Below are positions 121 through 8,138 of a stretch of 64,000 nt of DNA, in pieces. The notes beneath the pieces are model-generated. The model was not told where the DNA came from. It made no database searches and was given only the letters and a program-made list of their open reading frames with translations. Made by a program: the position numbers and the translations under genes. Within the stretch, counting starts at the first letter, position 1; every line of letters starts with the position of its first letter. Origin of the DNA: Candidatus Woesearchaeota archaeon (GTDB taxonomy: Archaea > Nanobdellota > Nanobdellia > SCGC-AAA011-G17 > GW2011-AR18); NCBI GenBank assembly GCA_018302765.1, contig JAGVZG010000004.1:1-64000 (forward strand). Reading direction: 5' to 3'.

Positions 121-651
121 TTATTTATTTGTTTCAGAAATACTTACTTTGACAACATTGTTTTGGTCTAGGCCATCATTTCTTATTACCATGTCTGTAA
201 TTCCAACTAATGTACTTGGCTTTGTTGCCGACCTAGTTATATTAGCCAGATTTGTATAGTTTGTATATATCTGAATATTATAATTATTTTTAACGTTTGC
301 ATTTTCTGTTAATATTGTCAGCTTTCCCTCAAAAACAGGAATTCCTATATCACTTATAATAACCTTTGAATTATTATACTGCCAAATAATCAAAGAATCT
401 TTATTATCTATTCTAATAAAACCTTTTTTTATATTAACTGTCAGTACTCTTTGGCTGCCTGGTCCTTCTCTAACAACTTCCCTTATATTCTGATCTAATT
501 CGTGCATTACTTGTTTTGTCTGTATTATTACATTTTTATCTCTTAATTTATTAATTACTGGCAGACCAGCAGCAAGCAATATAGAAATTACAACAATACC
601 TAATCCAAAATATAAAACAGCACTAACCCATATATCCCCTTTTTTATTCAT
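121..651 (-). CDS. archaeal type IV pilin-like protein (class III signal peptide)
   Basis: MNKKG|DIWVSAVLYFGLGIVVISILLAAG: basic residues, Gly cleavage site, then hydrophobic helix. Confidence 0.75.
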   Translation of the reverse strand: MNKKGDIWVSAVLYFGLGIVVISILLAAGLPVINKLRDKNVIIQTKQVMHELDQNIREVVREGPGSQRVLTVNIKKGFIRIDNKDSLIIWQYNNSKVIISDIGIPVFEGKLTILTENANVKNNYNIQIYTNYTNLANITRSATKPSTLVGITDMVIRNDGLDQNNVVKVSISETNK

Positions 652-852
652 GAAATTTAAGTTCTTTTATAGTTAATTAATTTTACTAAATATTTTTTAT
701 TTAGTAACTGTTAAAATTATTTATTTCTAAATAGAATTTACCCTCTTTTAATAATAACCTATAAACTTTATTGTCTTATATTATAAATTTAGTTACTACT
801 TATTAGATACAATAAAAGAAAGCTTTAAATAATTACTGTTAATTAAAGAAAT

Positions 853-1548
853 ATGGCTGATGAAATAACAGTTGGAAGTTTTGATAATCTAGTTAAACGT
901 ATGAACCATCCAGAAAGGCCAAATAGGGATTTTAACGGTCTTGACATTATAACAAATGTTTCTAGTGCTTGTGGAAGGCAAAGCAGTGGTCTTGATGCCA
1001 GACTAATCAAAAGAAATGAAGGAGTAGAAATAATTGCTAATAATGAACTCCCTTATTCCCAAGCTAGGTATTCATGGGGCAGTGAAACAGAAAGGAAAAA
1101 ACCTGGCAAGTTTGTTGATTGTGAACGTGATGTTGAAGTTTCTCCAAAAGGCTATAAATATGACAGAGTGATAACTGCAAGTTTGTTTTTATCTGATAAA
1201 TTTTTAAAAGAATTGTGTCTTTATCATATTAATAGTAGCGTTGACCCTTCAGACGATGAAGGATCTCGTGTATATAGTTATCATATGAAAGGACCAGTTT
1301 TGTGGCAGGCTAATTTAAGAGGCTATAGAATGGGTGCAAGAGACTTTTTAGCTGTTATTCTTCCAACAAATAAATTATACAACCCTGTTAAACTTTATAG
1401 ATATAGAAGTGGAGATTCTGAATTGATTGAAAAGGGAATGTATATACCAGAAGAACACGCAATTCAATGGGAAGATATTTCTGAGCTTAAAGAATTGTTA
1501 AGAGAAGTTAGACACTTATCAAGACCTACAAAAGGGGATGGCATCTAG
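853..1548 (+). CDS. hypothetical protein
   Basis: 231-aa ORF, TATA-like TTTAAATA upstream, no recognised motif. Confidence 0.7.
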   Translation: MADEITVGSFDNLVKRMNHPERPNRDFNGLDIITNVSSACGRQSSGLDARLIKRNEGVEIIANNELPYSQARYSWGSETERKKPGKFVDCERDVEVSPKGYKYDRVITASLFLSDKFLKELCLYHINSSVDPSDDEGSRVYSYHMKGPVLWQANLRGYRMGARDFLAVILPTNKLYNPVKLYRYRSGDSELIEKGMYIPEEHAIQWEDISELKELLREVRHLSRPTKGDGI

Positions 1549-1693
1549 TTTTTACCTAGAAGAAAATCAGCGTACGATGGGAAGGAGATTTAGCGTTACG
1601 GAAAGAGAAATTAATACAATTAGAACTATGGCTACAAAAACACAAGACATGGCTGTTGGTACTAGCGTTAGTAAACCATATGGGCGTCGTTGA
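1538..1693 (+). CDS. small hypothetical protein, 51 aa (not in ORF track)
   Basis: MASSFYLEENQRTMGRRFSVTEREINTIRTMATKTQDMAVGTSVSKPYGRR; overlaps the upstream stop and is preceded by AAAGGGG. Confidence 0.35.
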   Translation: MASSFYLEENQRTMGRRFSVTEREINTIRTMATKTQDMAVGTSVSKPYGRR

Positions 1694-1773
1694 CATTAAG
1701 TAATATTTTTAATTTATTTTTTCAAATATTAAGAAAATATAAAAAAGAAGAAAAAAGGCTATAACCTTTTTAA

Positions 1774-2301
1774 TTAAAATGTTACTAATTCAGGCGTATC
1801 ACAGGCTTTTGTATTCCCTTCTATTGTAAATATTGGGTAAACCTCAACTTTTGATACTTTAGTTAAATCAACATCACCTGGAGCAACATTTATTGTATAT
1901 GTCTGAGGAACTGGGAATTCCAATGCTGCCTTGCCTGAAGTTGAAGTAAAGTTGCCGTTAGTAAGTGCATAACCTGCATACTTTTTAATTTTTCCTACTG
2001 CGTCATAAACTATAAAATTAAAATCATCTATAGTTTTGTCTTGATTTTGATTTCTCATAGTAATACTTACTTTAAAAAGTGTTGGATTTACTTTTTTCTC
2101 AGTTATTTCCAACTTTAATCCTGTTGTACATGCCAAACTAAACTGTGAAGCTGTTTCTGTCTGACTGACTGTAGTCTTAAACAGCTTTGTGCCCCATGTT
2201 ATTACTAATGCTGCCAAAACTATTGTAAATCCTATTATAAGAACAGTTGCTATTAAAGGACTTATTCCTTTTTTATTTTTCCTATTAAGCATATTCATCA
2301 A
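1774..2301 (-). CDS. archaeal type IV pilin / archaellin-like protein
   Basis: KKG|ISPLIATVLIIGFTIVLAALV class III signal peptide; two Cys in the globular part. Confidence 0.88.
   Translation of the reverse strand: MMNMLNRKNKKGISPLIATVLIIGFTIVLAALVITWGTKLFKTTVSQTETASQFSLACTTGLKLEITEKKVNPTLFKVSITMRNQNQDKTIDDFNFIVYDAVGKIKKYAGYALTNGNFTSTSGKAALEFPVPQTYTINVAPGDVDLTKVSKVEVYPIFTIEGNTKACDTPELVTF
2239..2271. repeat. 33-bp exact direct repeat, copy 1 (copy 2 at 2729-2761), encoding the pilin KGISPLIATVL segment
   Basis: aagaacagttgctattaaaggacttattccttt occurs identically at 2239-2271 and 2729-2761. Confidence 0.9.
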
Positions 2302-2308
2302 CCTCCAT

Positions 2309-2785
2309 TTATGATTTTAATACTTCTATTTTTTTATCTTTACAAACTAAGAATTTTGCCTTGCCTTGAGATGTTTCCTTTACAATTCCAGGATAAATTT
2401 CAATCCTATCTGGGCAAGAATCTGCTTTTATTTTATTGATGCTCTGCTCTGCAGGTTTTGTTGGATTTAATGTCGGAGGGAAACTTTTTCCTTCTTCACC
2501 GTTGTAAAATACAAACATAAATCCTTCTACTTTTATATTTCCATTATTTGTAACAGTAATATCAGCATAATCCTCGCCATTTTCTGAACCACAAGTAAAT
2601 TCTGCACCAATGTCCAAAGAAGTCTCTTCTTGAGCACCACAATCAGTTGATTTTTCAATTGTGCCAAGAGTAATGCCTCTTATCAAGGCAAATACGATCA
2701 AAAAGACACCTATTGTTGCACCAATCAGAAGAACAGTTGCTATTAAAGGACTTATTCCTTTCTTAGCCATCAACCTCTTTTGCAT
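2309..2785 (-). CDS. archaeal type IV pilin / archaellin-like protein
   Basis: KKG|ISPLIATVLLIGATIGVFLIV class III signal peptide; four Cys. Confidence 0.88.
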   Translation of the reverse strand: MQKRLMAKKGISPLIATVLLIGATIGVFLIVFALIRGITLGTIEKSTDCGAQEETSLDIGAEFTCGSENGEDYADITVTNNGNIKVEGFMFVFYNGEEGKSFPPTLNPTKPAEQSINKIKADSCPDRIEIYPGIVKETSQGKAKFLVCKDKKIEVLKS

Positions 2786-2829
2786 AAATTTTCATAGATT
2801 AACTTATTTAAAAGCATATCGATTTATTT

Positions 2830-3417
2830 TTAACAATTTGCAGTATTTTTAATGTCTAAGCAGATTTGTTTATAGTTAAGAACAAGCTGTCTAGTTATAC
2901 ATTTCACAGATTGATTTTTTTCTGGATCTTTTATTACTGGTATAATTTTTAATTCAGGGTTTTGATTGTTTGTATTTATTTGTATGTTAATATTATATTT
3001 GTTGTCTTTTCCTGGCTTTAGAACTGAAGGTTTAAGATTTTCATCGTAAATTAAAGAAGGCCTAGATTCCAAACCTGGAGCATTTATTATAAACTGATGA
3101 ATTGAGAAAGCACCGCGATTAATCAAAGTAATTGGTGCAAATAGTGATACTCCTGGAACAATGATTGGGTTTCCCGTTATTGGATCGTGGTCAAAACCTG
3201 CCTTGCCTTGTTCATAAATACCTAACTTTTCAGGATCAGTAATCATGTAACCAAGACTTACTGATTCACAATAAATACTTTCTTCAGTTAATTTTTCTGG
3301 ATTAAACTCCTTAGTTTTTTTTATTACGTAATTAGAAACAACAGCAGCCATGCTTATTGTAAGGGCAAGCAAAAGAACTGCTGCTAATAATGGACTTATA
3401 CCTCTTTTATTTTTCAT
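2830..3417 (-). CDS. archaeal type IV pilin / archaellin-like protein
   Basis: KRG|ISPLLAAVLLLALTISMAAVV class III signal peptide. Confidence 0.85.
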   Translation of the reverse strand: MKNKRGISPLLAAVLLLALTISMAAVVSNYVIKKTKEFNPEKLTEESIYCESVSLGYMITDPEKLGIYEQGKAGFDHDPITGNPIIVPGVSLFAPITLINRGAFSIHQFIINAPGLESRPSLIYDENLKPSVLKPGKDNKYNINIQINTNNQNPELKIIPVIKDPEKNQSVKCITRQLVLNYKQICLDIKNTANC

Positions 3418-3453
3418 TGGTAAAAATAAGAACTCTTTATGTTTTAAAACTTT

Positions 3454-3612
3454 CTAAAAATCCAAGTTTGATTCTCTAAGAATTTGTTCAGCATCTGGCT
3501 CTTTTTCAACAGTGCCAACGCCACCGCAGTTCCCGCATCTTGGAGGCGGGTCTGTTCTTCCAGTTCTTGGAGAGTACTTAAATCTGCAACTTCTGCATAA
3601 AAACGTAACCAT
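3454..3612 (-). CDS. small zinc-ribbon protein, 52 aa (not in ORF track)
   Basis: MVTFLCRSCRFKYSPRTGRTDPPPRCGNCGGVGTVEKEPDAEQILRESNLDF: two CxxC pairs. Confidence 0.75.
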   Translation of the reverse strand: MVTFLCRSCRFKYSPRTGRTDPPPRCGNCGGVGTVEKEPDAEQILRESNLDF

Positions 3613-3733: not shown

Positions 3734-4258
3734 ATGAACAATAAAAAGATAGGTTTTACATTATTAATCATTGGCGTTTTGTTGTTTATTGTGTTATTAT
3801 CTTATAATTATAAATTAAACCAGCAAGCTTCAGCTTATGGCTGCAATCCAAACTCACAATGCATGAATATATCTTCTTTGCTTTCTTTAACAAATATATT
3901 TATAGGAATAATTTTTTCTTTAGTTAGCCTTGGCTTTTATATTTTATTCTTTAACAAGGATGAAGAGATAATATTAAGAAGATTAGATGAAAATAAAAAA
4001 CAACTTACTAAAGAACAAAAATTCGAAATAATGTTAAAGGCCTTGACAGCTGAAGAGAGGCAACTGATGCAGATTATAAGAGAACAGGAGGGAATAACAC
4101 AGTCTACTTTGAGAATTAAAACAGATTTTTCTAAAACAAAGTTAAGTTTTGTATTAGCAGACTTGGAAAAGAAGGGTTTGATTAAGAAAGAGATTTCTGG
4201 CAAAACCAACAAACTCTATATAAAAGAAGGAATTTTAAGCCTATCTAAACATATCTGA
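3734..4258 (+). CDS. membrane-anchored winged-helix (MarR-like) transcriptional regulator
   Basis: Two N-terminal TM helices around CNPNSQC; C-terminal wHTH (EGITQSTLRIKTDFSKTKLSFVLADLEKKGLIKKE). Confidence 0.75.
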   Translation: MNNKKIGFTLLIIGVLLFIVLLSYNYKLNQQASAYGCNPNSQCMNISSLLSLTNIFIGIIFSLVSLGFYILFFNKDEEIILRRLDENKKQLTKEQKFEIMLKALTAEERQLMQIIREQEGITQSTLRIKTDFSKTKLSFVLADLEKKGLIKKEISGKTNKLYIKEGILSLSKHI

Positions 4259-4350: not shown

Positions 4351-5334
4351 ATGAAAGCAATATACTTGATATTTGTTTTACTTATTTTATCTTCTGTAGC
4401 TATACATGCCCATGATACTGGAGAGGAGCATGCGGAGCTGCCTGATAATATAATAAAGCAAATAGAATATCAGAAAAGCTTGGCTTTGGGAGTTACATTT
4501 TTAATAGCTTTGTTAGCTGGATTATTAACATTTACATCGCCATGCAGTTTTGCTATTTTGCCAATATATTTTTCATTTGTTTTTAAAAAAAGACATAATG
4601 CTCTGTTGTTCACTTCCTCATTTATATTTGGCCTAACTATAGCATTTGCACTGTTTGGCTTTATTGCTGGGATTGTTGGAGATTACTTTAATGACTACAA
4701 ATTATATTTTGCTTCTATATCTGGAATATTTATTTCTATTTTTGGAATTATGATGATCCTTAATAAAGGATTTAGCATATTTACACCAAAAATATCTGAA
4801 GGAAAAAATAGTATATTTAGTTTTGTTTTATTTGGATTTTTATTTGGAGCTGGGTGGAGCCCTTGCGTAGGTCCAATACTTGGATCTATATTTTTCCTGG
4901 CTGCTAATTCCGGAACTCTACTGAAAAGCACATTACTATTAATAACTTATTCTGCCGGAATATCCATACCTTTGCTATTATTTTCTTATATTTCAGACCG
5001 TACAAAATTATCAGATTTTTTAAACAATATTAAGCAAGTGAAATTTAAACTGCTTGGAAATGTTTTTATTACAAACTGGTACGGCATTGTCGGAGGCTTA
5101 CTGACTTTTATTATGGGTATTTTAATTATGAAGTACAATGGCACAAGTTATGTTGAATATATCATAAGTTATACTACTGGCTGGGCAATGTTTGCTTTTG
5201 TTGGATTTAATAACAGACTAAGAGATATTAATTTACCAAATGGTTTGAGCAATATCTTAGGAATATTAACTGCTTTGATTATTTTTGCTTTAATTACAGC
5301 AATTATATTTAATGCATTAAAAAAGAAAGAATAA
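4351..5334 (+). CDS. ccdA: CcdA/DsbD-family transmembrane thiol-disulfide electron transporter
   Basis: Paired motifs FTSPCSFAILP and GWSPCVGPILG in a polytopic membrane protein; His-containing N-terminus (HAHDTGEEH). Confidence 0.88.
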   Translation: MKAIYLIFVLLILSSVAIHAHDTGEEHAELPDNIIKQIEYQKSLALGVTFLIALLAGLLTFTSPCSFAILPIYFSFVFKKRHNALLFTSSFIFGLTIAFALFGFIAGIVGDYFNDYKLYFASISGIFISIFGIMMILNKGFSIFTPKISEGKNSIFSFVLFGFLFGAGWSPCVGPILGSIFFLAANSGTLLKSTLLLITYSAGISIPLLLFSYISDRTKLSDFLNNIKQVKFKLLGNVFITNWYGIVGGLLTFIMGILIMKYNGTSYVEYIISYTTGWAMFAFVGFNNRLRDINLPNGLSNILGILTALIIFALITAIIFNALKKKE

Positions 5335-5447: not shown

Positions 5448-6143
5448 ATGGCAAAAAAAGAAGAAAAAACATTTACAAATTTGCTAATTATAGGTGTTGT
5501 GCTATTAGTTCTAGTAGCTTCTGCCAATGCTTACATGCTTTCATCTTTGTCTGATAATTTAGGCGGATCTAGGGGCAAAGGACTAATTTATAGCAAAGAT
5601 ATTTCAAAAATAGATTTATCATCAATAAAGTCAACAGGCCAGTCTTTAGCAGTTTTATTTCCATTGGACAAAATAAAAACACAGCAAGATGCAATCAGCC
5701 TATTAATCCCTACGGGCACTCCTGAATATGGTGATGCTTTGGGAGTAAGTTTTGATGATCCTGTAGGCTCATTAGACAAACTGTCAAGACAAATTTATCC
5801 GCAAATAAAAGCTGAGCTAAAAAGTAATCCAGAATTATGGAAAAGATACATAAATCTTGCAACAAAGCCAGTAGGAATATCATGCGAGTTTTGCTGTGGT
5901 GTTGGACCTATTGGCATAAGCAGCAACGGAGAATTGAGATGTGGCTGCTCTCACAATCCTGCAGTTCAAGCAATATCAATGTGGCTAATTAAGAATACTG
6001 ATTATTCAGATGCAGAAATAGTCAGGGAAGTTATGATGTGGAAATCTTTATGGTTCCCGAAAAATATGATAGAATTAGGCACGAAATTATCTGGAGGGGA
6101 TGTTGATTTAAACAGTCTTCCAGGAATGGTAGGCGGATGCTAA
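5448..6143 (+). CDS. membrane-anchored Cys-rich protein (CEFCC...CGCSH) ending in LPGMVGGC
   Basis: N-terminal TM helix; SCEFCCG and RCGCSH motifs; C-terminal MVGGC. Confidence 0.8.
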   Translation: MAKKEEKTFTNLLIIGVVLLVLVASANAYMLSSLSDNLGGSRGKGLIYSKDISKIDLSSIKSTGQSLAVLFPLDKIKTQQDAISLLIPTGTPEYGDALGVSFDDPVGSLDKLSRQIYPQIKAELKSNPELWKRYINLATKPVGISCEFCCGVGPIGISSNGELRCGCSHNPAVQAISMWLIKNTDYSDAEIVREVMMWKSLWFPKNMIELGTKLSGGDVDLNSLPGMVGGC

Positions 6144-6146
6144 TTA

Positions 6147-6152
6147 GGAGGT
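6147..6152 (+). promoter_or_regulatory. Shine-Dalgarno site GGAGGT for the 70-aa ORF
   Basis: GGAGGT 4 nt upstream of ATG 6157. Confidence 0.7.
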
Positions 6153-6156
6153 AAAA

Positions 6157-6369
6157 ATGAATAAAAATATGATTTTGGTTTTGGTTTTGGTTGTTTTAGT
6201 TGTTGTGTCTGTTATTCAGGCAGTGCAGCTGACTGGATTAAAATCAAACATAGAAGAAGGTTCATTAAAGCTTGGTTCAGGCAGCAAAACTCCACAAGTA
6301 ACTACAACAAATACACAGACAAGCTCTGGCAATTTACAAGACCTGCCCTCAATGGTTGGAGGCTGTTAA
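6157..6369 (+). CDS. small membrane-anchored peptide ending in LPSMVGGC
   Basis: TM helix, Ser/Thr-rich linker, C-terminus shared with the upstream protein; strong SD. Confidence 0.82.
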   Translation: MNKNMILVLVLVVLVVVSVIQAVQLTGLKSNIEEGSLKLGSGSKTPQVTTTNTQTSSGNLQDLPSMVGGC

Positions 6370-6390: not shown

Positions 6391-7536
6391 ATGGCCAGTT
6401 CAAAATTTTTTAAGAAATTAAATAGTTTTAATTATGAACCAGTTGTTCATATATTAGGAATAATAATTGTAGTGCTTTTTATAATAAACTTATTTTTCAT
6501 AACGTCGTTAACATCTTCATTAAAACAAAAAGTATCAGAAGCAAATGAAGCTGCAAGGCCTGCTAAATTAGATTTAATAATAATTAATGCGCCTAGCTGC
6601 GATAAGTGCTTTGATATTAAAAGTATAGTTGCCAATATAAAATCTGGAAATGTAAATATAACTAGTGAAGAAGTATTAAATTTTAAGGATGCTTTTCTAG
6701 TTGCATCCGAATACATTTCAAAATATGATATTGAAAAATTACCTACTGTTATAGTTAAAGGAGAATTAAACAAAACTAAACTGCATGAAACACTGATAAG
6801 CGTTGGCGATGCTTATGTATTTACAAAACAAACTGCGCCTTATTTTAATATAGGCTCTAATAGCATTAAAGGATTTGTTACTGTTACTATAGTAAATGCA
6901 GATGGCTGTTCAGAGTGTGCTGATATTGGCATTGCATTAGATCAGATAAATACTGGAGGCATTGTAATACAAGATATAATTAACTTAAGCGAAAAAGAAA
7001 GCAAAGAATTAACAGACAAATACAAAATTAAAAAACTTCCAAGCTTAATACTCTCAAGCGATGCCTCAGAATATTCATTGATAAAACAAAGCTGGAATTC
7101 AGTAGGAAGTGAGGAAGATGATGGCAGCTTTGTATTAAGAAATTTCCTACCTCCTTACAAGAATTTAGAAACTGGTAAGATAGATGGATTAGTGTCTTTG
7201 ACTTATGTGGTGGATTCTTCATGCAGTGAATGCTACAATGTATCAGTACATAAGAATATAATTAACAGCTATGGTTTAAAAATTGCAGGTGAAAAGACAT
7301 TAGATGTTAATACTCCTGAAGGCCTTGAATATACTAAATTAAATGGCATAAACTTAGTTCCAACTGCAGTATTGTCAAGTGATGCAAAATTATACAGTGC
7401 TTTCTACAGAGTATTTACCCAGGTTTCAAATGAGAGCAATGGAAATCTTGTATTTACTTCAGTAGAATTAATGGGTACTTACAAGGATTTACAAAGTGGA
7501 GAAGTAATTACACCTAAACAACAGGAAGTTCAATAA
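6391..7536 (+). CDS. membrane-anchored protein with three tandem thioredoxin-like CxxC modules
   Basis: SCDKC, GCSEC and SCSEC, each followed by a cis-Pro-like KLPT/KLPS/LVPT segment; N-terminal TM helix. Confidence 0.75.
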   Translation: MASSKFFKKLNSFNYEPVVHILGIIIVVLFIINLFFITSLTSSLKQKVSEANEAARPAKLDLIIINAPSCDKCFDIKSIVANIKSGNVNITSEEVLNFKDAFLVASEYISKYDIEKLPTVIVKGELNKTKLHETLISVGDAYVFTKQTAPYFNIGSNSIKGFVTVTIVNADGCSECADIGIALDQINTGGIVIQDIINLSEKESKELTDKYKIKKLPSLILSSDASEYSLIKQSWNSVGSEEDDGSFVLRNFLPPYKNLETGKIDGLVSLTYVVDSSCSECYNVSVHKNIINSYGLKIAGEKTLDVNTPEGLEYTKLNGINLVPTAVLSSDAKLYSAFYRVFTQVSNESNGNLVFTSVELMGTYKDLQSGEVITPKQQEVQ

Positions 7537-8138
7537 TGGAAGAAAACCAAGATATTTCCAAGTATGAAAAAAAGCAATTAAAAAAACAGGAAAAAGAAGA
7601 ACAAAGAAGACAAGTTGATGAATCCAGAAAATCTAGTGAAACAAAGAAAAAAGTCAAAAAATATATTATTATTTCTATAATTGTGTTATTAATTTTAATT
7701 GGCGGATATTATTTAATAATAAAACCAATAAATGATTTTAAGCCTTTTTATTCTGGCTTTTATCATTGGCATGCAAATTTTGAGGTTTCTGTTTGCGGTA
7801 AACCAGTAGATGTAAAATGCAAAGGAACAATGTGCGGGCCAATGAATTTGCACCATCATAATGATAATATTATACATATGGAAGGAAATAGCCTTGCAAA
7901 GAAAGAAGATATTGCGATAGGAAAATTCTTTGAGGGTATTGGGGTAACTTTTTCAGAAACACAATTAATGGGTAAAAACAATGGAGATTTATGTGATGAT
8001 AAACAAGGATCTGTTAAACTTTATATTAATGGAAAAGAAAACTATGAATTTAGAAATTATGTTCCAAAGGTATGCGATGCACAAGCAGTTAGTGATATAA
8101 AACAAAGATGTGACAATATAGAATTAAAGTTTGAGTAA
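7536..8138 (+). CDS. membrane-anchored His/Cys-rich putative metal-binding or redox protein
   Basis: Charged N-terminus, one TM helix, HWHANF...CG...HHHNDNIIHME, six Cys; start overlaps the upstream stop. Confidence 0.7.
   Translation: MEENQDISKYEKKQLKKQEKEEQRRQVDESRKSSETKKKVKKYIIISIIVLLILIGGYYLIIKPINDFKPFYSGFYHWHANFEVSVCGKPVDVKCKGTMCGPMNLHHHNDNIIHMEGNSLAKKEDIAIGKFFEGIGVTFSETQLMGKNNGDLCDDKQGSVKLYINGKENYEFRNYVPKVCDAQAVSDIKQRCDNIELKFE

What the first reader, a model, noticed from the sequence alone, without database searches (positions are those of the whole stretch)
5448..6369. Two adjacent membrane-anchored proteins share a C-terminal LPxMVGGC-stop tag conserved at the protein level
Seen: the 231-aa protein ends L-N-S-LPGMVGGC* and the next 70-aa ORF ends L-Q-D-LPSMVGGC*; otherwise they look unrelated. 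All six shared degenerate codons differ at position 3 (CTT/CTG, CCA/CCC, GTA/GTT, GGC/GGA, GGA/GGC, TGC/TGT), so the match is not a recent DNA duplication. The 70-aa ORF has a perfect GGAGGT SD and is just a TM anchor, a flexible S/T linker and the tag. Inference: the tag is a swinging-arm terminal thiol that shuttles electrons or a metal ion (Cu/Hg-like) between partners, loosely like the C-terminal Cys tails of MerA and mammalian TrxR. Alternatively it is a conjugation or lipidation signal (GG-C). I know of no described family for this motif.
Basis: partly seen in the sequence, partly recalled or inferred. Interest (0 to 1): 0.85.

Follow-up and report, generated by a model that had tools for sequence, protein, structure and literature searches.

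The report
Paired membrane proteins ending in MVGGC
Two neighbouring membrane-anchored proteins of a tiny (DPANN) archaeon do end in the same cysteine-tipped tail; the tail marks an undescribed gene pair that sits beside thiol-reducing genes in hundreds of related genomes and most likely acts as a flexible cysteine arm outside the cell.

Summary
Window 5448-6143 (231 aa, "BIG") ends LPGMVGGC and 6157-6369 (70 aa, "small") ends LPSMVGGC. None of the six shared degenerate codons is the same.

The tail is not chance. All 120 best homologues end in [M/Q]VGGC. 71 of 80 related DPANN loci carry a small partner with the same tail just downstream. This 1-Mb genome holds a second, paralogous pair. No Pfam, NCBIfam, PDB or literature match exists for BIG or the motif.

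The neighbours are CcdA (58 of 80 loci), a three-CxxC PDO-like thioredoxin protein (61 of 80), and often soft-metal genes (CopA 12 of 80).

New here:
- The Met/Gln variant of the tail agrees between the two proteins of a cassette (72 of 72 M/M; about 10 Q/Q lineages against 1 mixed), even in a genome that holds one cassette of each kind.
- Gene conversion is rare.
- The small protein is BIG's anchor plus tail, with exactly one Cys.
- A test for coevolution between the tail and BIG's Cys pocket was not significant.

Best reading (about 0.5): tethered cysteine arms share one docking or metal site and are kept reduced by CcdA and TRX3, with Cu(I) as the likeliest cargo. This function is inferred, not shown.

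This scan has met the same family on at least 17 other genomes, with the same reading.

The parts
3734..4258 (+). REG: two-TM membrane-bound winged-helix regulator with a Cys pair (G-C-N-P-x-x-x-C) in the outside loop. It is the likely sensor and regulator of the operon.
   Evidence: Pfam DUF7343 E 2e-9 and MarR E 1e-5. A paralogue heads the second cassette. Homologues lie in 14 of 80 related loci, and the loop motif is conserved.
4351..5334 (+). CcdA-type thiol-disulfide transporter (DsbD transmembrane domain), which brings reducing power out of the cytoplasm.
   Evidence: Pfam DsbD_TM E 4.7e-13, 49.4 bits against a cut-off of 27.1. Homologues lie within +-8 kb of BIG in 58 of 80 loci.
5448..6143 (+). 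BIG: 231-aa protein with an N-terminal membrane anchor, an all-helical outside domain and the tail. It founds an undescribed family.
   Evidence: 629 homologues at E<=1e-3. 300 clusters at 50% identity in 1.84 billion proteins. No Pfam, NCBIfam or PDB match. AF2 model pLDDT 88.9.
5883..5954 (+). Cysteine/histidine cluster of BIG: C146-E-F-C149-C150-G ... C165-G-C167-S-H169.
   Evidence: All of these residues are invariant in 37 aligned homologues. BIG proteins hold exactly 6 Cys in 74 of 80 loci.
6099..6143 (+). Tail of BIG (residues 218-231, ...DVDLNSLPGMVGGC) and its stop codon.
   Evidence: M227 V228 G229 G230 C231 are invariant. 120 of 120 homologues end in [M/Q]VGGC. The last 11 residues have low model confidence, mean pLDDT 64.
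6147..6152 (+). GGAGGT ribosome-binding site of the small gene, inside the 13-nt spacer.
   Evidence: Read directly from the sequence. In related loci the BIG-to-small gap is 2 nt in about 20 of 72 pairs and under 100 nt in most.
6157..6369 (+). small: 70-aa protein made of the same kind of anchor, a Ser/Thr/Gly-rich linker and the same tail (...NLQDLPSMVGGC). The terminal Cys is its only Cys.
   Evidence: 71 of 80 loci have such an ORF (55-99 aa) downstream of BIG. There is exactly one Cys in 73 of 73. The linker is 24% Ser.
6391..7536 (+). TRX3: membrane-anchored protein with three thioredoxin-fold repeats, each with an invariant CxxC. It is the likely outside reductase fed by CcdA.
   Evidence: C70/C73, C173/C176 and C278/C281 are invariant or nearly so. 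The profile hits the archaeal protein disulfide oxidoreductases 1J08 and 1A8L at E 1.5e-7. Present in 61 of 80 loci.
7536..8138 (+). TM200: membrane-anchored beta-grasp domain with a His/Cys cluster (HWHA...CG...H-x-H...H-x-E). Its start overlaps the TRX3 stop. Role unknown.
   Evidence: AF2 pLDDT 91.6. Best fold matches are DUF4430 protein 3U7Z (Z 7.4, rmsd 2.8, 84 residues) and the transcobalamin beta domain (Z 7.2). No Pfam family. Present in about 30 of 80 loci.

Best explanation
BIG and small form a membrane-tethered pair on the outer face of the cell membrane. Each presents one terminal cysteine at the end of the same flexible 14-residue tail.

The two tails work at one common site. That site is either BIG's own Cys5-His cluster or a site the two tails build together. 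The terminal thiol cycles between free thiol, a metal-bound state and a mixed disulfide. The small protein has a longer and freer tether and only one Cys, so it is the mobile partner. BIG is the docking station.

CcdA passes reducing power across the membrane to the three-CxxC protein TRX3, which returns oxidised tails and cluster to the thiol state. The likeliest cargo or stressor is Cu(I) or another soft metal. In effect the arms would be a tethered stand-in for a diffusible thiol or periplasmic metallochaperone in a cell with no closed periplasm.

Shown: the motif, its conservation, the pairing, the gene linkage, and the within-cassette matching of the tail variant. Inferred: outside topology, docking, redox cycling and metal binding.
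For: Conservation of the terminal Cys and of the six-Cys pattern:
- The terminal Cys and MVGG are invariant over 120 homologues down to 48% identity.
- The Cys persists in nearly all full-length members of 300 clusters at 50% identity.
- The small protein has exactly one Cys in 73 of 73 cases. BIG has exactly six in 74 of 80.

Pairing and translational coupling:
- 71 of 80 loci hold the pair.
- The gaps between the two genes are mostly 2-100 nt.

Thiol-redox linkage:
- TRX3 lies in 61 and CcdA in 58 of 80 loci.
- 35 of the 37 loci with at least 12 kb held carry a thiol-redox marker.
- TRX3 is PDO-like.

Soft-metal linkage:
- Within +-8 kb: CopA in 12, ArsR in 7, TRASH-like in 7, Met/His-rich in 5 and MerT-like in 5 of 80 loci.
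- 19 of the 37 long loci carry a soft-metal marker.
- The paralogous small proteins carry Met/His motifs such as MMYEHHG.
- His is 9.5% of BIG's cytoplasmic N-termini against 1.6% overall.
- Several BIG homologues are fused to a multi-TM domain with an intramembrane GCPTCG motif and weak MerT likeness.

One shared site:
- The Met/Gln variant agrees between BIG and small in 72 of 72 M cassettes.
- It also agrees in about 10 Q lineages against 1 mixed lineage.
- Genome G139 holds one Q/Q and one M/M cassette.
- M<->Q changed at least 18 times on the BIG tree.
- Gene conversion is rare: 2.72 of 6 codons are the same against 2.24 expected.
Against: No experiment or co-fold shows metal binding, a disulfide or docking.

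The thiol-redox link is much tighter than the metal link: 35 against 19 of 37 long loci. In this genome CopA lies on another contig and no metal gene lies in the window's operon.

Gln in place of Met in about 10% of tails argues against Met being an obligatory Cu(I) ligand.

Coevolution of the tail with the residue between Cys167 and His169 looked strong in raw counts. After correction for phylogeny it was not significant, with median p of 0.69 and 0.25. Docking on BIG's cluster is therefore unproven.

The positive-inside rule is clear for BIG but ambiguous for the small protein.

One lineage (L126/L128) has a mixed Q/M pair.
Confidence: 0.5

Rival explanations
1. This is a pure thiol-disulfide relay with no metal cargo. 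The tails act as tethered monothiols that form mixed disulfides with oxidised surface proteins or with BIG's cluster. They pass electrons from CcdA/TRX3 to substrates, for envelope protein folding or repair.
For: CcdA and TRX3 are the tightest neighbours: 58 and 61 of 80 loci, and 35 of 37 long loci carry a redox marker. A further thioredoxin-like family (f145), sometimes with a monothiol WCKYT site, often sits between BIG and small. The window's own operon holds no metal gene. The best, though weak, fold match of BIG is the thiol oxidoreductase CcmH (Z 4.3).
Against: It does not explain the enrichment of CopA, TRASH, MerT-like and Met/His-rich genes. It does not explain the His-rich cytoplasmic N-termini or the Met/His motifs in paralogous small proteins. 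A single-Cys protein cannot by itself resolve a disulfide. The CcmH match is at noise level.
Confidence: 0.22
2. The role is structural. The two terminal cysteines form a disulfide with each other or with the odd fifth Cys of BIG's cluster. This simply locks BIG and small into a covalent surface complex, and the cluster is a structural zinc or disulfide knot. There is no carrier cycle.
For: BIG has five cluster Cys, an odd number, plus one tail Cys. The small protein has one Cys. The matched tail variants and alike anchors fit a stable heterodimer.
Against: A dedicated CcdA/TRX3 reductive pathway next to the pair is hard to explain if the end state is an oxidised disulfide. The long, low-complexity and length-variable tether of the small protein (55-99 aa) suggests reach, not a fixed contact.
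Confidence: 0.1
3. The tails are sulfur-carrier arms like SoxY. The terminal Cys would carry sulfane sulfur or thiosulfate as a persulfide or adduct between enzymes. CcdA and a thioredoxin would re-activate it, as SoxV and SoxS/W do for SoxY.
For: The form resembles the SoxY C-terminal GGCGG arm and its CcdA-type and thioredoxin helpers (own knowledge; the soxV/soxS/soxW/soxY linkage is described in PMC5748708). Rhodanese genes lie in 4 of 80 loci.
Against: This 100%-complete genome has no SoxY. No Pfam hit to SoxY or SoxZ was found. No sulfur-oxidising enzyme recurs in the 80 neighbourhoods. BIG is helical, not the beta-sandwich of SoxY.
Confidence: 0.07
4. The tail is a C-terminal sorting or lipidation signal. 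The terminal Cys would be lipidated, for example by the bacterial-type Lgt of these archaea, or otherwise conjugated. The protein would then be anchored at both ends or handed to a surface structure.
For: M-V-G-G-C fits the PROSITE lipobox pattern. A true Lgt (PF01790, E 9e-66) is in this genome. Lgt lies within +-8 kb of BIG in 11 of 80 loci, often right after ccdA.
Against: The motif follows a hydrophilic linker, not a membrane helix. Some homologues have D or E at position -1 (MVGDC, WVGEC), which a lipobox does not allow. The genome has about 9 ordinary N-terminal lipobox ORFs, so Lgt has its usual clients. Here Lgt lies on another contig. A genome-wide enzyme does not explain why the M/Q variant is matched per cassette in a genome holding both.
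Confidence: 0.05

Closest known systems
SoxY carrier arm (C-terminal GGCGG) with its helpers SoxV (CcdA-type) and SoxS/SoxW (thioredoxins) of the bacterial Sox system
   Same: A single functional Cys sits at the tip of a flexible Gly-Gly C-terminal peptide outside the cytoplasm. It is encoded beside a CcdA-type membrane protein and thioredoxin-fold proteins that could re-reduce it.
   Different: No sequence or fold relation was found: BIG is all-helical with no SoxY Pfam hit, and SoxY is absent from the genome. The chain ends at the Cys. The proteins are membrane-anchored. There are two arms per cassette. No Sox enzymes are present.
Scs (suppressor of copper sensitivity) and TlpA-Sco type systems: a DsbD/CcdA-fed thioredoxin-like protein that protects or prepares envelope cysteines under copper stress
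   Same: A CcdA/DsbD-type transporter and an extracytoplasmic thioredoxin-fold protein are encoded together with copper genes. The logic is to keep outside cysteines reduced so they can bind or resist copper.
   Different: BIG, small and TM200 have no counterpart in these systems. TRX3 is a three-repeat PDO-like protein, not a DsbA or TlpA type. The comparison rests on my own knowledge of those systems and was not tested by sequence.
CcmH (PF03918, PDB 2HL7), thiol oxidoreductase of cytochrome c maturation System I
   Same: It is the best structural match of BIG's Cys-bearing region: Z 4.3, rmsd 3.2 A, 73 residues. Both are small helical domains with a CxxC in a loop, downstream of a DsbD/CcdA pathway.
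   Different: The match is at noise level for helical models. There is no Pfam hit in 37 members. BIG has CxxCC plus CGCxH plus a tail, where CcmH has one LRCxxC.
MerP-MerT-MerA thiol relay for Hg(II), including the C-terminal Cys pair of MerA
   Same: Soft-metal ions are handed between cysteine pairs on mobile segments and an intramembrane Cys pair. MerT-like genes lie in 5 of 80 loci. BIG is fused to a multi-TM domain with an intramembrane GCPTCG motif in several cluster representatives.
   Different: The MerT likeness is below the family cut-offs (17-23 bits against 33-180). No MerA or MerP was seen in the neighbourhoods examined. The direction of transport is unknown.

Membership tests
SoxY (PF13501) | Sequence match to the SoxY family model | tested here: not met
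   No Pfam hit for BIG or small at E<=0.1 or for 37 BIG homologues at E<=1. No SoxY anywhere in the 100%-complete genome.
SoxY (PF13501) | C-terminal Gly-Gly-Cys-Gly-Gly carrier peptide | tested here: not met
   The tail is M/Q-V-G-G-C and the chain ends at the Cys in 120 of 120 homologues. Only rare distant members add one Gly.
CcmH / NrfF / CycL (PF03918) | Sequence match to the family model with an LRCxxC motif | tested here: not met
   No Pfam hit in 37 members. The motif here is S-C-E-[FY]-C-C-G.
CcmH / NrfF / CycL (PF03918) | Three-helix-bundle fold with the CxxC in a loop | tested here: inconclusive
   2HL7 is the top VIA-align row but only at Z 4.3, rmsd 3.2 and 73 residues. Foldseek found nothing.
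CopG / DUF411 (PF04214) | Sequence match to the family model (CxCC copper-cluster protein) | tested here: not met
   No Pfam hit.
Bacterial lipoprotein signal (lipobox, Lgt substrate) | [LVI..][ASTVIG][GAS]-C motif | tested here: met
   V-G-G-C fits the pattern (sequence). But some homologues have D or E at -1.
Bacterial lipoprotein signal (lipobox, Lgt substrate) | The motif lies at the end of an N-terminal signal-peptide helix | tested here: not met
   The motif is the extreme C-terminus, after a hydrophilic linker 30-200 residues from the only membrane helix.
CcdA / DsbD transmembrane domain (PF02683), for ORF 4351-5334 | Match above Pfam's gathering score | tested here: met
   E 4.7e-13, 49.4 bits against a cut-off of 27.1.
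Protein disulfide oxidoreductase (PDO) / thioredoxin fold, for ORF 6391-7536 | Thioredoxin-fold repeats with CxxC active sites | tested here: met
   Three CxxC motifs are invariant or nearly so, each followed by a conserved Pro. The profile hits 1J08 and 1A8L at E 1.5e-7 to 3e-7. Single-sequence Pfam hits are below the cut-offs. PDO itself has two repeats and is cytoplasmic, so this is a relative, not an orthologue.
MerT (PF02411), for the membrane domain fused to some BIG homologues | Match above the family cut-off with the TM1 Cys pair | tested here: inconclusive
   The best scores are 17.4 bits (Pfam cut-off 32.9) and 23.5 bits (NCBIfam MerTP cut-off 180) in one of four members. An intramembrane GCPTCG motif is present.

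The most novel reading that the evidence does not exclude
BIG and small are a new class of extracytoplasmic carrier system. Two membrane-tethered peptide arms, each tipped by one cysteine, jointly form a single metal or disulfide site. They are recycled by CcdA and a PDO-like protein. This would be a tethered replacement for glutathione-like thiols and periplasmic metallochaperones in ultra-small cells that have no closed periplasm.
Probability: 0.3. Interest if true: 0.8.

Novelty: new variant of a known kind. Interest (0 to 1): 0.6.

Why it matters
DPANN archaea, and by earlier notes of this scan also CPR bacteria, are abundant, uncultured and poorly annotated. This gene pair is one of their most strictly conserved unannotated surface features: five residues stay invariant across proteins that are otherwise only about 30-50% identical.

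If the arms carry copper or electrons, they would show how cells without a periplasm or known low-molecular-weight thiols protect surface cysteines and handle soft metals. They would also add a second natural example, after SoxY, of a C-terminal Gly-Gly-Cys swinging arm.

The family has a confident predicted fold with no solved relative, so it is a tractable target for structural and biochemical work.

Tried and rejected
**Family and fold searches for BIG**
- Pfam and NCBIfam scans of BIG and small found nothing.
- A Pfam scan of 37 BIG homologues found nothing.
- A profile search of PDB sequences found nothing at E<=10.
- Foldseek against the PDB found nothing.
- VIA-align gave only noise-level rows, with CcmH on top at Z 4.3.
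- The ESM Atlas returned only unnamed clusters of the same family.
- Full-text searches for MVGGC, QVGGC, GMVGGC, CEFCCG and CEYCCG found no relevant paper.

**Tail against pocket coevolution**
- Raw mutual information put the CGC-x-H residue first. Q tails have Ala there in 28 of 35 cases and never Ser or Lys.
- The independent-pairs test on the tree was not significant, with median p of 0.69 and 0.25. I do not claim it.

**Fusion partners**
- Pfam scans of the long BIG fusions found no known domain except one FKBP.
- The recurrent fused multi-TM domain has only sub-threshold MerT likeness.

**Lipidation by Lgt**
- I considered this because the tail fits the lipobox pattern and Lgt is a frequent neighbour. 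I rejected it as the main reading (see the rival explanations).

**Gene conversion**
- I tested this as the cause of the shared tail. Only a slight excess of identical codons was found, and one locus (L003) has identical DNA.

**Uninformative or unavailable**
- The sigma-70 promoter and intrinsic-terminator scans were at shuffle level, and this is an archaeon.
- No tRNA gene lies in the window.
Pattern scans of genomes and metagenomes were used instead.
Full report
**1. The observation**

The window encodes, on the + strand, a 231-aa protein (5448-6143, here BIG) ending ...DVDLNSLPGMVGGC. Thirteen bases later, behind a GGAGGT at 6147-6152, it encodes a 70-aa protein (6157-6369, here small) ending ...NLQDLPSMVGGC.

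In the whole 1.02-Mb genome only four of 2,269 ORFs of at least 40 aa end in GGC. All four end in MVGGC. They are the two in the window and a second pair on contig C26: L001 7470-8159 (229 aa) and 7192-7476 (94 aa). The second large protein is a 31%-identical paralogue of BIG, with the same CE[FY]CCG ... CGCxH motifs and the same ending.

**2. Conservation**

BIG has 629 homologues at E<=1e-3 among proteins of similar length. The best 120 (48-100% identity, named Woesearchaeota, Micrarchaeia or 'archaeon' where named) all end in [M/Q]VGGC: 117 with M and 3 with Q.

In an alignment of 37 homologues the invariant residues of the mature part include C146, E147, C149, C150, G151, C165, G166, C167, H169 and the last five residues.

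An exhaustive profile search of 1.84 billion representatives found 300 clusters at 50% identity. Among the 150 returned, nearly every full-length member keeps the terminal Cys and the Gly at -2. Position -1 may be G, S, A, D or E, and position -4 is M or Q.

Nothing places BIG in a known family. The searches were:
- Pfam, NCBIfam and a PDB sequence profile.
- Foldseek and the ESM Atlas.
- Two full-text literature searches for the motifs, which found no relevant paper.

The AF2 model is confident (pLDDT 88.9). It shows an N-terminal helix, a low-confidence linker, an all-helical domain with the Cys motifs in a non-helical stretch, and a less confident tail. The only fold lead, CcmH (2HL7), scores Z 4.3, which is noise level for helical models.

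**3. The pair and its neighbours**

Eighty related loci were fetched from species-representative genomes. All are DPANN-type MAGs by their titles: Woese-, Pace-, Micr-, Aenigmat- and Iainarchaeota and Nanoarchaeia. In 71 of them a 55-99-aa ORF ending LPxMVGGC lies just downstream of BIG on the same strand. The gap is 2 nt in about 20 of 72 pairs and under 100 nt in most.

The small proteins always have exactly one Cys, the last residue. BIG has exactly six in 74 of 80.

- BIG: (T/A)-S-(V/A)-L-x-(D/E)-L-P-G-M-V-G-G-C.
- small: P-(S/T)-(S/N)-(L/I)-(Q/K)-N-L-P-x-M-V-G-G-C.

The N-terminal anchors are also of one kind, with a polar (N/Q)-x-x-Q-(I/L) motif at the outer end of the helix. The window-alignment score is 19.4 for true pairs, 17.8 for shuffled pairs and 5.3 against reversed sequences. 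So the small protein is BIG's anchor plus BIG's tail, joined by a Ser-rich linker.

Clustering all neighbour ORFs within +-8 kb gave these counts out of 80 loci:

| Neighbour | Loci of 80 |
|---|---|
| Three-CxxC protein of window 6391-7536 (TRX3) | 61 |
| CcdA | 58 |
| Membrane-anchored thioredoxin-like family (f145) | 26 |
| TM200 family of window 7536-8138 | about 30 |
| BlaI-type repressor | 18 |
| BlaR/M48-type protease | 17 |
| Two-TM winged-helix regulator of window 3734-4258 (REG) | 14 |
| CopA-type ATPase with HMA domain | 12 |
| DoxX | 11 |
| Bacterial-type Lgt | 11 |
| ArsR | 7 |
| TRASH-like Cys proteins | 7 |
| MerT-like proteins | 5 |
| Met/His-rich proteins | 5 |

Other points on the neighbours:
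- TRX3's three CxxC motifs are invariant or nearly so. Its profile hits archaeal protein disulfide oxidoreductases at E 1.5e-7.
- TM200 folds confidently as a beta-grasp like DUF4430 (3U7Z, Z 7.4) and the transcobalamin beta domain. It has no named family.
- Of the 37 loci with at least 12 kb held, 35 carry a thiol-redox marker, 19 carry a soft-metal marker and 8 carry CopA.
- The redox link is therefore the core. The metal link is frequent and clearly enriched, but not obligatory.
- In this genome CopA lies on another contig (C22).

**4. Evidence on how the tails work**

(a) Matched variants. In 72 of 72 pairs where BIG has Met at -4, the small protein has Met too. A pattern scan of 401 genomes of the phylum found P-x-QVGGC-stop in four genomes, with zero hits for the reversed control. 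On inspection all four have Gln in both proteins of the cassette.

One of these genomes, G139, also holds a second cassette in which both tails have Met. A metagenome scan added the Q/Q pairs L100, L110/L144, L113, L127/L166, L159, L172 and L173, and one mixed lineage, L126/L128. On a tree of 305 BIG sequences the M/Q state changes at least 18 times.

The variant is thus matched per cassette, not per genome. This points to a partner inside the cassette: the other tail or BIG's own domain. It argues against a cell-wide processing enzyme.

(b) Not gene conversion. Across 54 pairs the two tails use the same codon at 2.72 of 6 comparable positions, against 2.24 expected from local codon usage. Only one locus (L003) has identical DNA. 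In the Q/Q cassettes the Gln, Ser and Gly codons differ between the two tails.

(c) Pocket test. Raw counts suggested that Q tails go with Ala between Cys167 and His169 (28 of 35, never Ser or Lys). The next best columns also lie around the Cys motifs. The phylogeny-aware paired test was not significant, with median p of 0.69 and 0.25. I report this as a trend only.

(d) Metal hints:
- Many BIG homologues have His-rich cytoplasmic N-termini: 9.5% His against 1.6% overall, and 23 of 193 have at least 4 His.
- The small proteins of the paralogous cassette type carry Met/His motifs (MMYEHHG here).
- Several cluster representatives, and L081, fuse BIG to a multi-TM domain of about 230 aa with an intramembrane GCPTCG. 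This domain also occurs as a separate gene near CopA/ArsR and has sub-threshold MerT likeness.

**5. Reading**

The best-supported mechanism is a pair of membrane-tethered cysteine arms working at one common site and kept reduced by CcdA and TRX3. A soft metal, most likely Cu(I), is the cargo or the stress they answer to. I put this at about 0.5.

| Rival | Odds | Main problem |
|---|---|---|
| Purely redox relay | 0.22 | Fits the tightest neighbours but not the metal hints |
| Purely structural covalent complex | 0.10 | A reductive pathway next to an oxidised end state |
| SoxY-like sulfur carrier | 0.07 | No Sox genes |
| Lipidation or sorting signal | 0.05 | See below |

The lipidation idea has something for it. 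The tail fits the lipobox pattern, and a true Lgt is present and often nearby. Against it:
- The motif is not at the end of a membrane helix.
- Some homologues have D or E at -1.
- The genome has about nine ordinary lipobox ORFs, so Lgt has its usual clients.
- The per-cassette matching is left unexplained.

**6. Comparison with the known, and novelty**

The system works most like the SoxY arm with its SoxV/SoxS helpers, and like CcdA-fed copper-protection systems (Scs, TlpA-Sco). It is not a member of SoxY, CcmH or CopG by sequence. BIG, small and TM200 are undescribed families. I class it as a new variant of a known kind: an envelope thiol and soft-metal system with new parts and a new two-arm design.

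**7. Relation to earlier work of this scan**

Look-ups made after I had formed my own reading show that the scan has met this tail on at least 17 other genomes. The conclusions were the same: an undescribed DPANN/CPR pair, a copper and/or thiol arm, with SoxY, CcmH, Scs or Mer as the nearest analogues. Those are unchecked AI notes.

I re-derived the core facts here and add the following:
- The per-cassette M/Q concordance, including a genome with both cassette types.
- The codon test against gene conversion.
- The negative phylogeny-corrected pocket test.
- The quantitative redox-against-metal neighbour counts.
- The MerT-like fusion.
- The tested and disfavoured Lgt idea.
- The fold of TM200.

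**8. Limits**

All function is inferred from sequence, context and models. Taxon names come from record titles. No co-folding or metal-aware modelling was available.

Noticed in passing
G000:C26:41191-42158 (L001 7192-8159, - strand), outside the window: A second, paralogous MVGGC cassette in the same genome. It runs: two-TM winged-helix regulator (L001 8233-8721), a 229-aa BIG paralogue, a 94-aa small protein with a Met/His motif (MMYEHHG), then four unannotated genes. Those four are a 175-aa multi-TM protein with HCLLC, a 167-aa protein ending CCKE, a 133-aa protein with HLEGHH, and a 133-aa multi-TM protein with CHNVC. The four downstream genes recur near BIG in 4-11 of 80 other loci.
   Followed up: partly
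G000:C12:30600-31310 (L082), outside the window: A bacterial-type prolipoprotein diacylglyceryl transferase (Lgt, PF01790, E 9e-66) in this archaeal genome, which also has about nine classic N-terminal lipobox ORFs. Lgt homologues lie within 8 kb of the MVGGC pair in 11 of 80 DPANN loci, usually with their own mini-ORF.
   Followed up: partly
window 3734-4258 (+): A membrane-bound one-component regulator: two TM helices flank an outside loop with a conserved G-C-N-P-x-x-x-C motif, followed by a DUF7343/MarR-type winged helix. A paralogue heads the second cassette. It looks like a surface redox or metal sensor tied to DNA binding.
   Followed up: partly
window 7536-8138 (+): TM200: a membrane-anchored beta-grasp domain (like DUF4430 and the transcobalamin beta domain, Z 7.2-7.4) with a conserved HWHA...H-x-H...H-x-E cluster and no Pfam family. 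Two homologues are fused to DsbA-type thioredoxin domains.
   Followed up: partly
L007 2446-2850, L006 6232-6669, L020 4956-5378 and others (family f145): A membrane-anchored or lipoprotein thioredoxin-like family often lies between BIG and small. Some members have a normal WCPxC site. Others have a monothiol WCKYT site plus a conserved C-terminal T-G-C.
   Followed up: no
P0125, P0127, P0128, P0131, P0132, P0135, P0161; L081 3669-5027: BIG is fused at its N-terminus to a multi-TM domain of about 230 aa with an intramembrane GCPTCG motif. The same domain occurs as a separate gene near CopA/ArsR (for example L031 12446-12955, L020 2985-3434) and has only sub-threshold MerT likeness.
   Followed up: partly
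L003 8001-8913: This is the only one of 54 pairs in which the last eight codons of BIG and small are identical at the DNA level (both LPEMVGGC). That suggests an occasional gene conversion between the two tails.
   Followed up: partly
window 121-3612 (- strand): A run of archaeal type IV pilin-like genes (Pilin_N, weak, E 0.0012 for 2830-3417) and a 52-aa four-Cys zinc-ribbon ORF (3454-3612) lie just upstream of the operon. The same zinc-ribbon and pilin genes sit beside the cluster in L003 and L002.
   Followed up: no
L126 1520-2453 and L128 4833-5766: The single mixed cassette found: BIG ends SLPSQVGGC while its small partner ends SGTDMVGGC, which also lacks the L-P.
   Followed up: no
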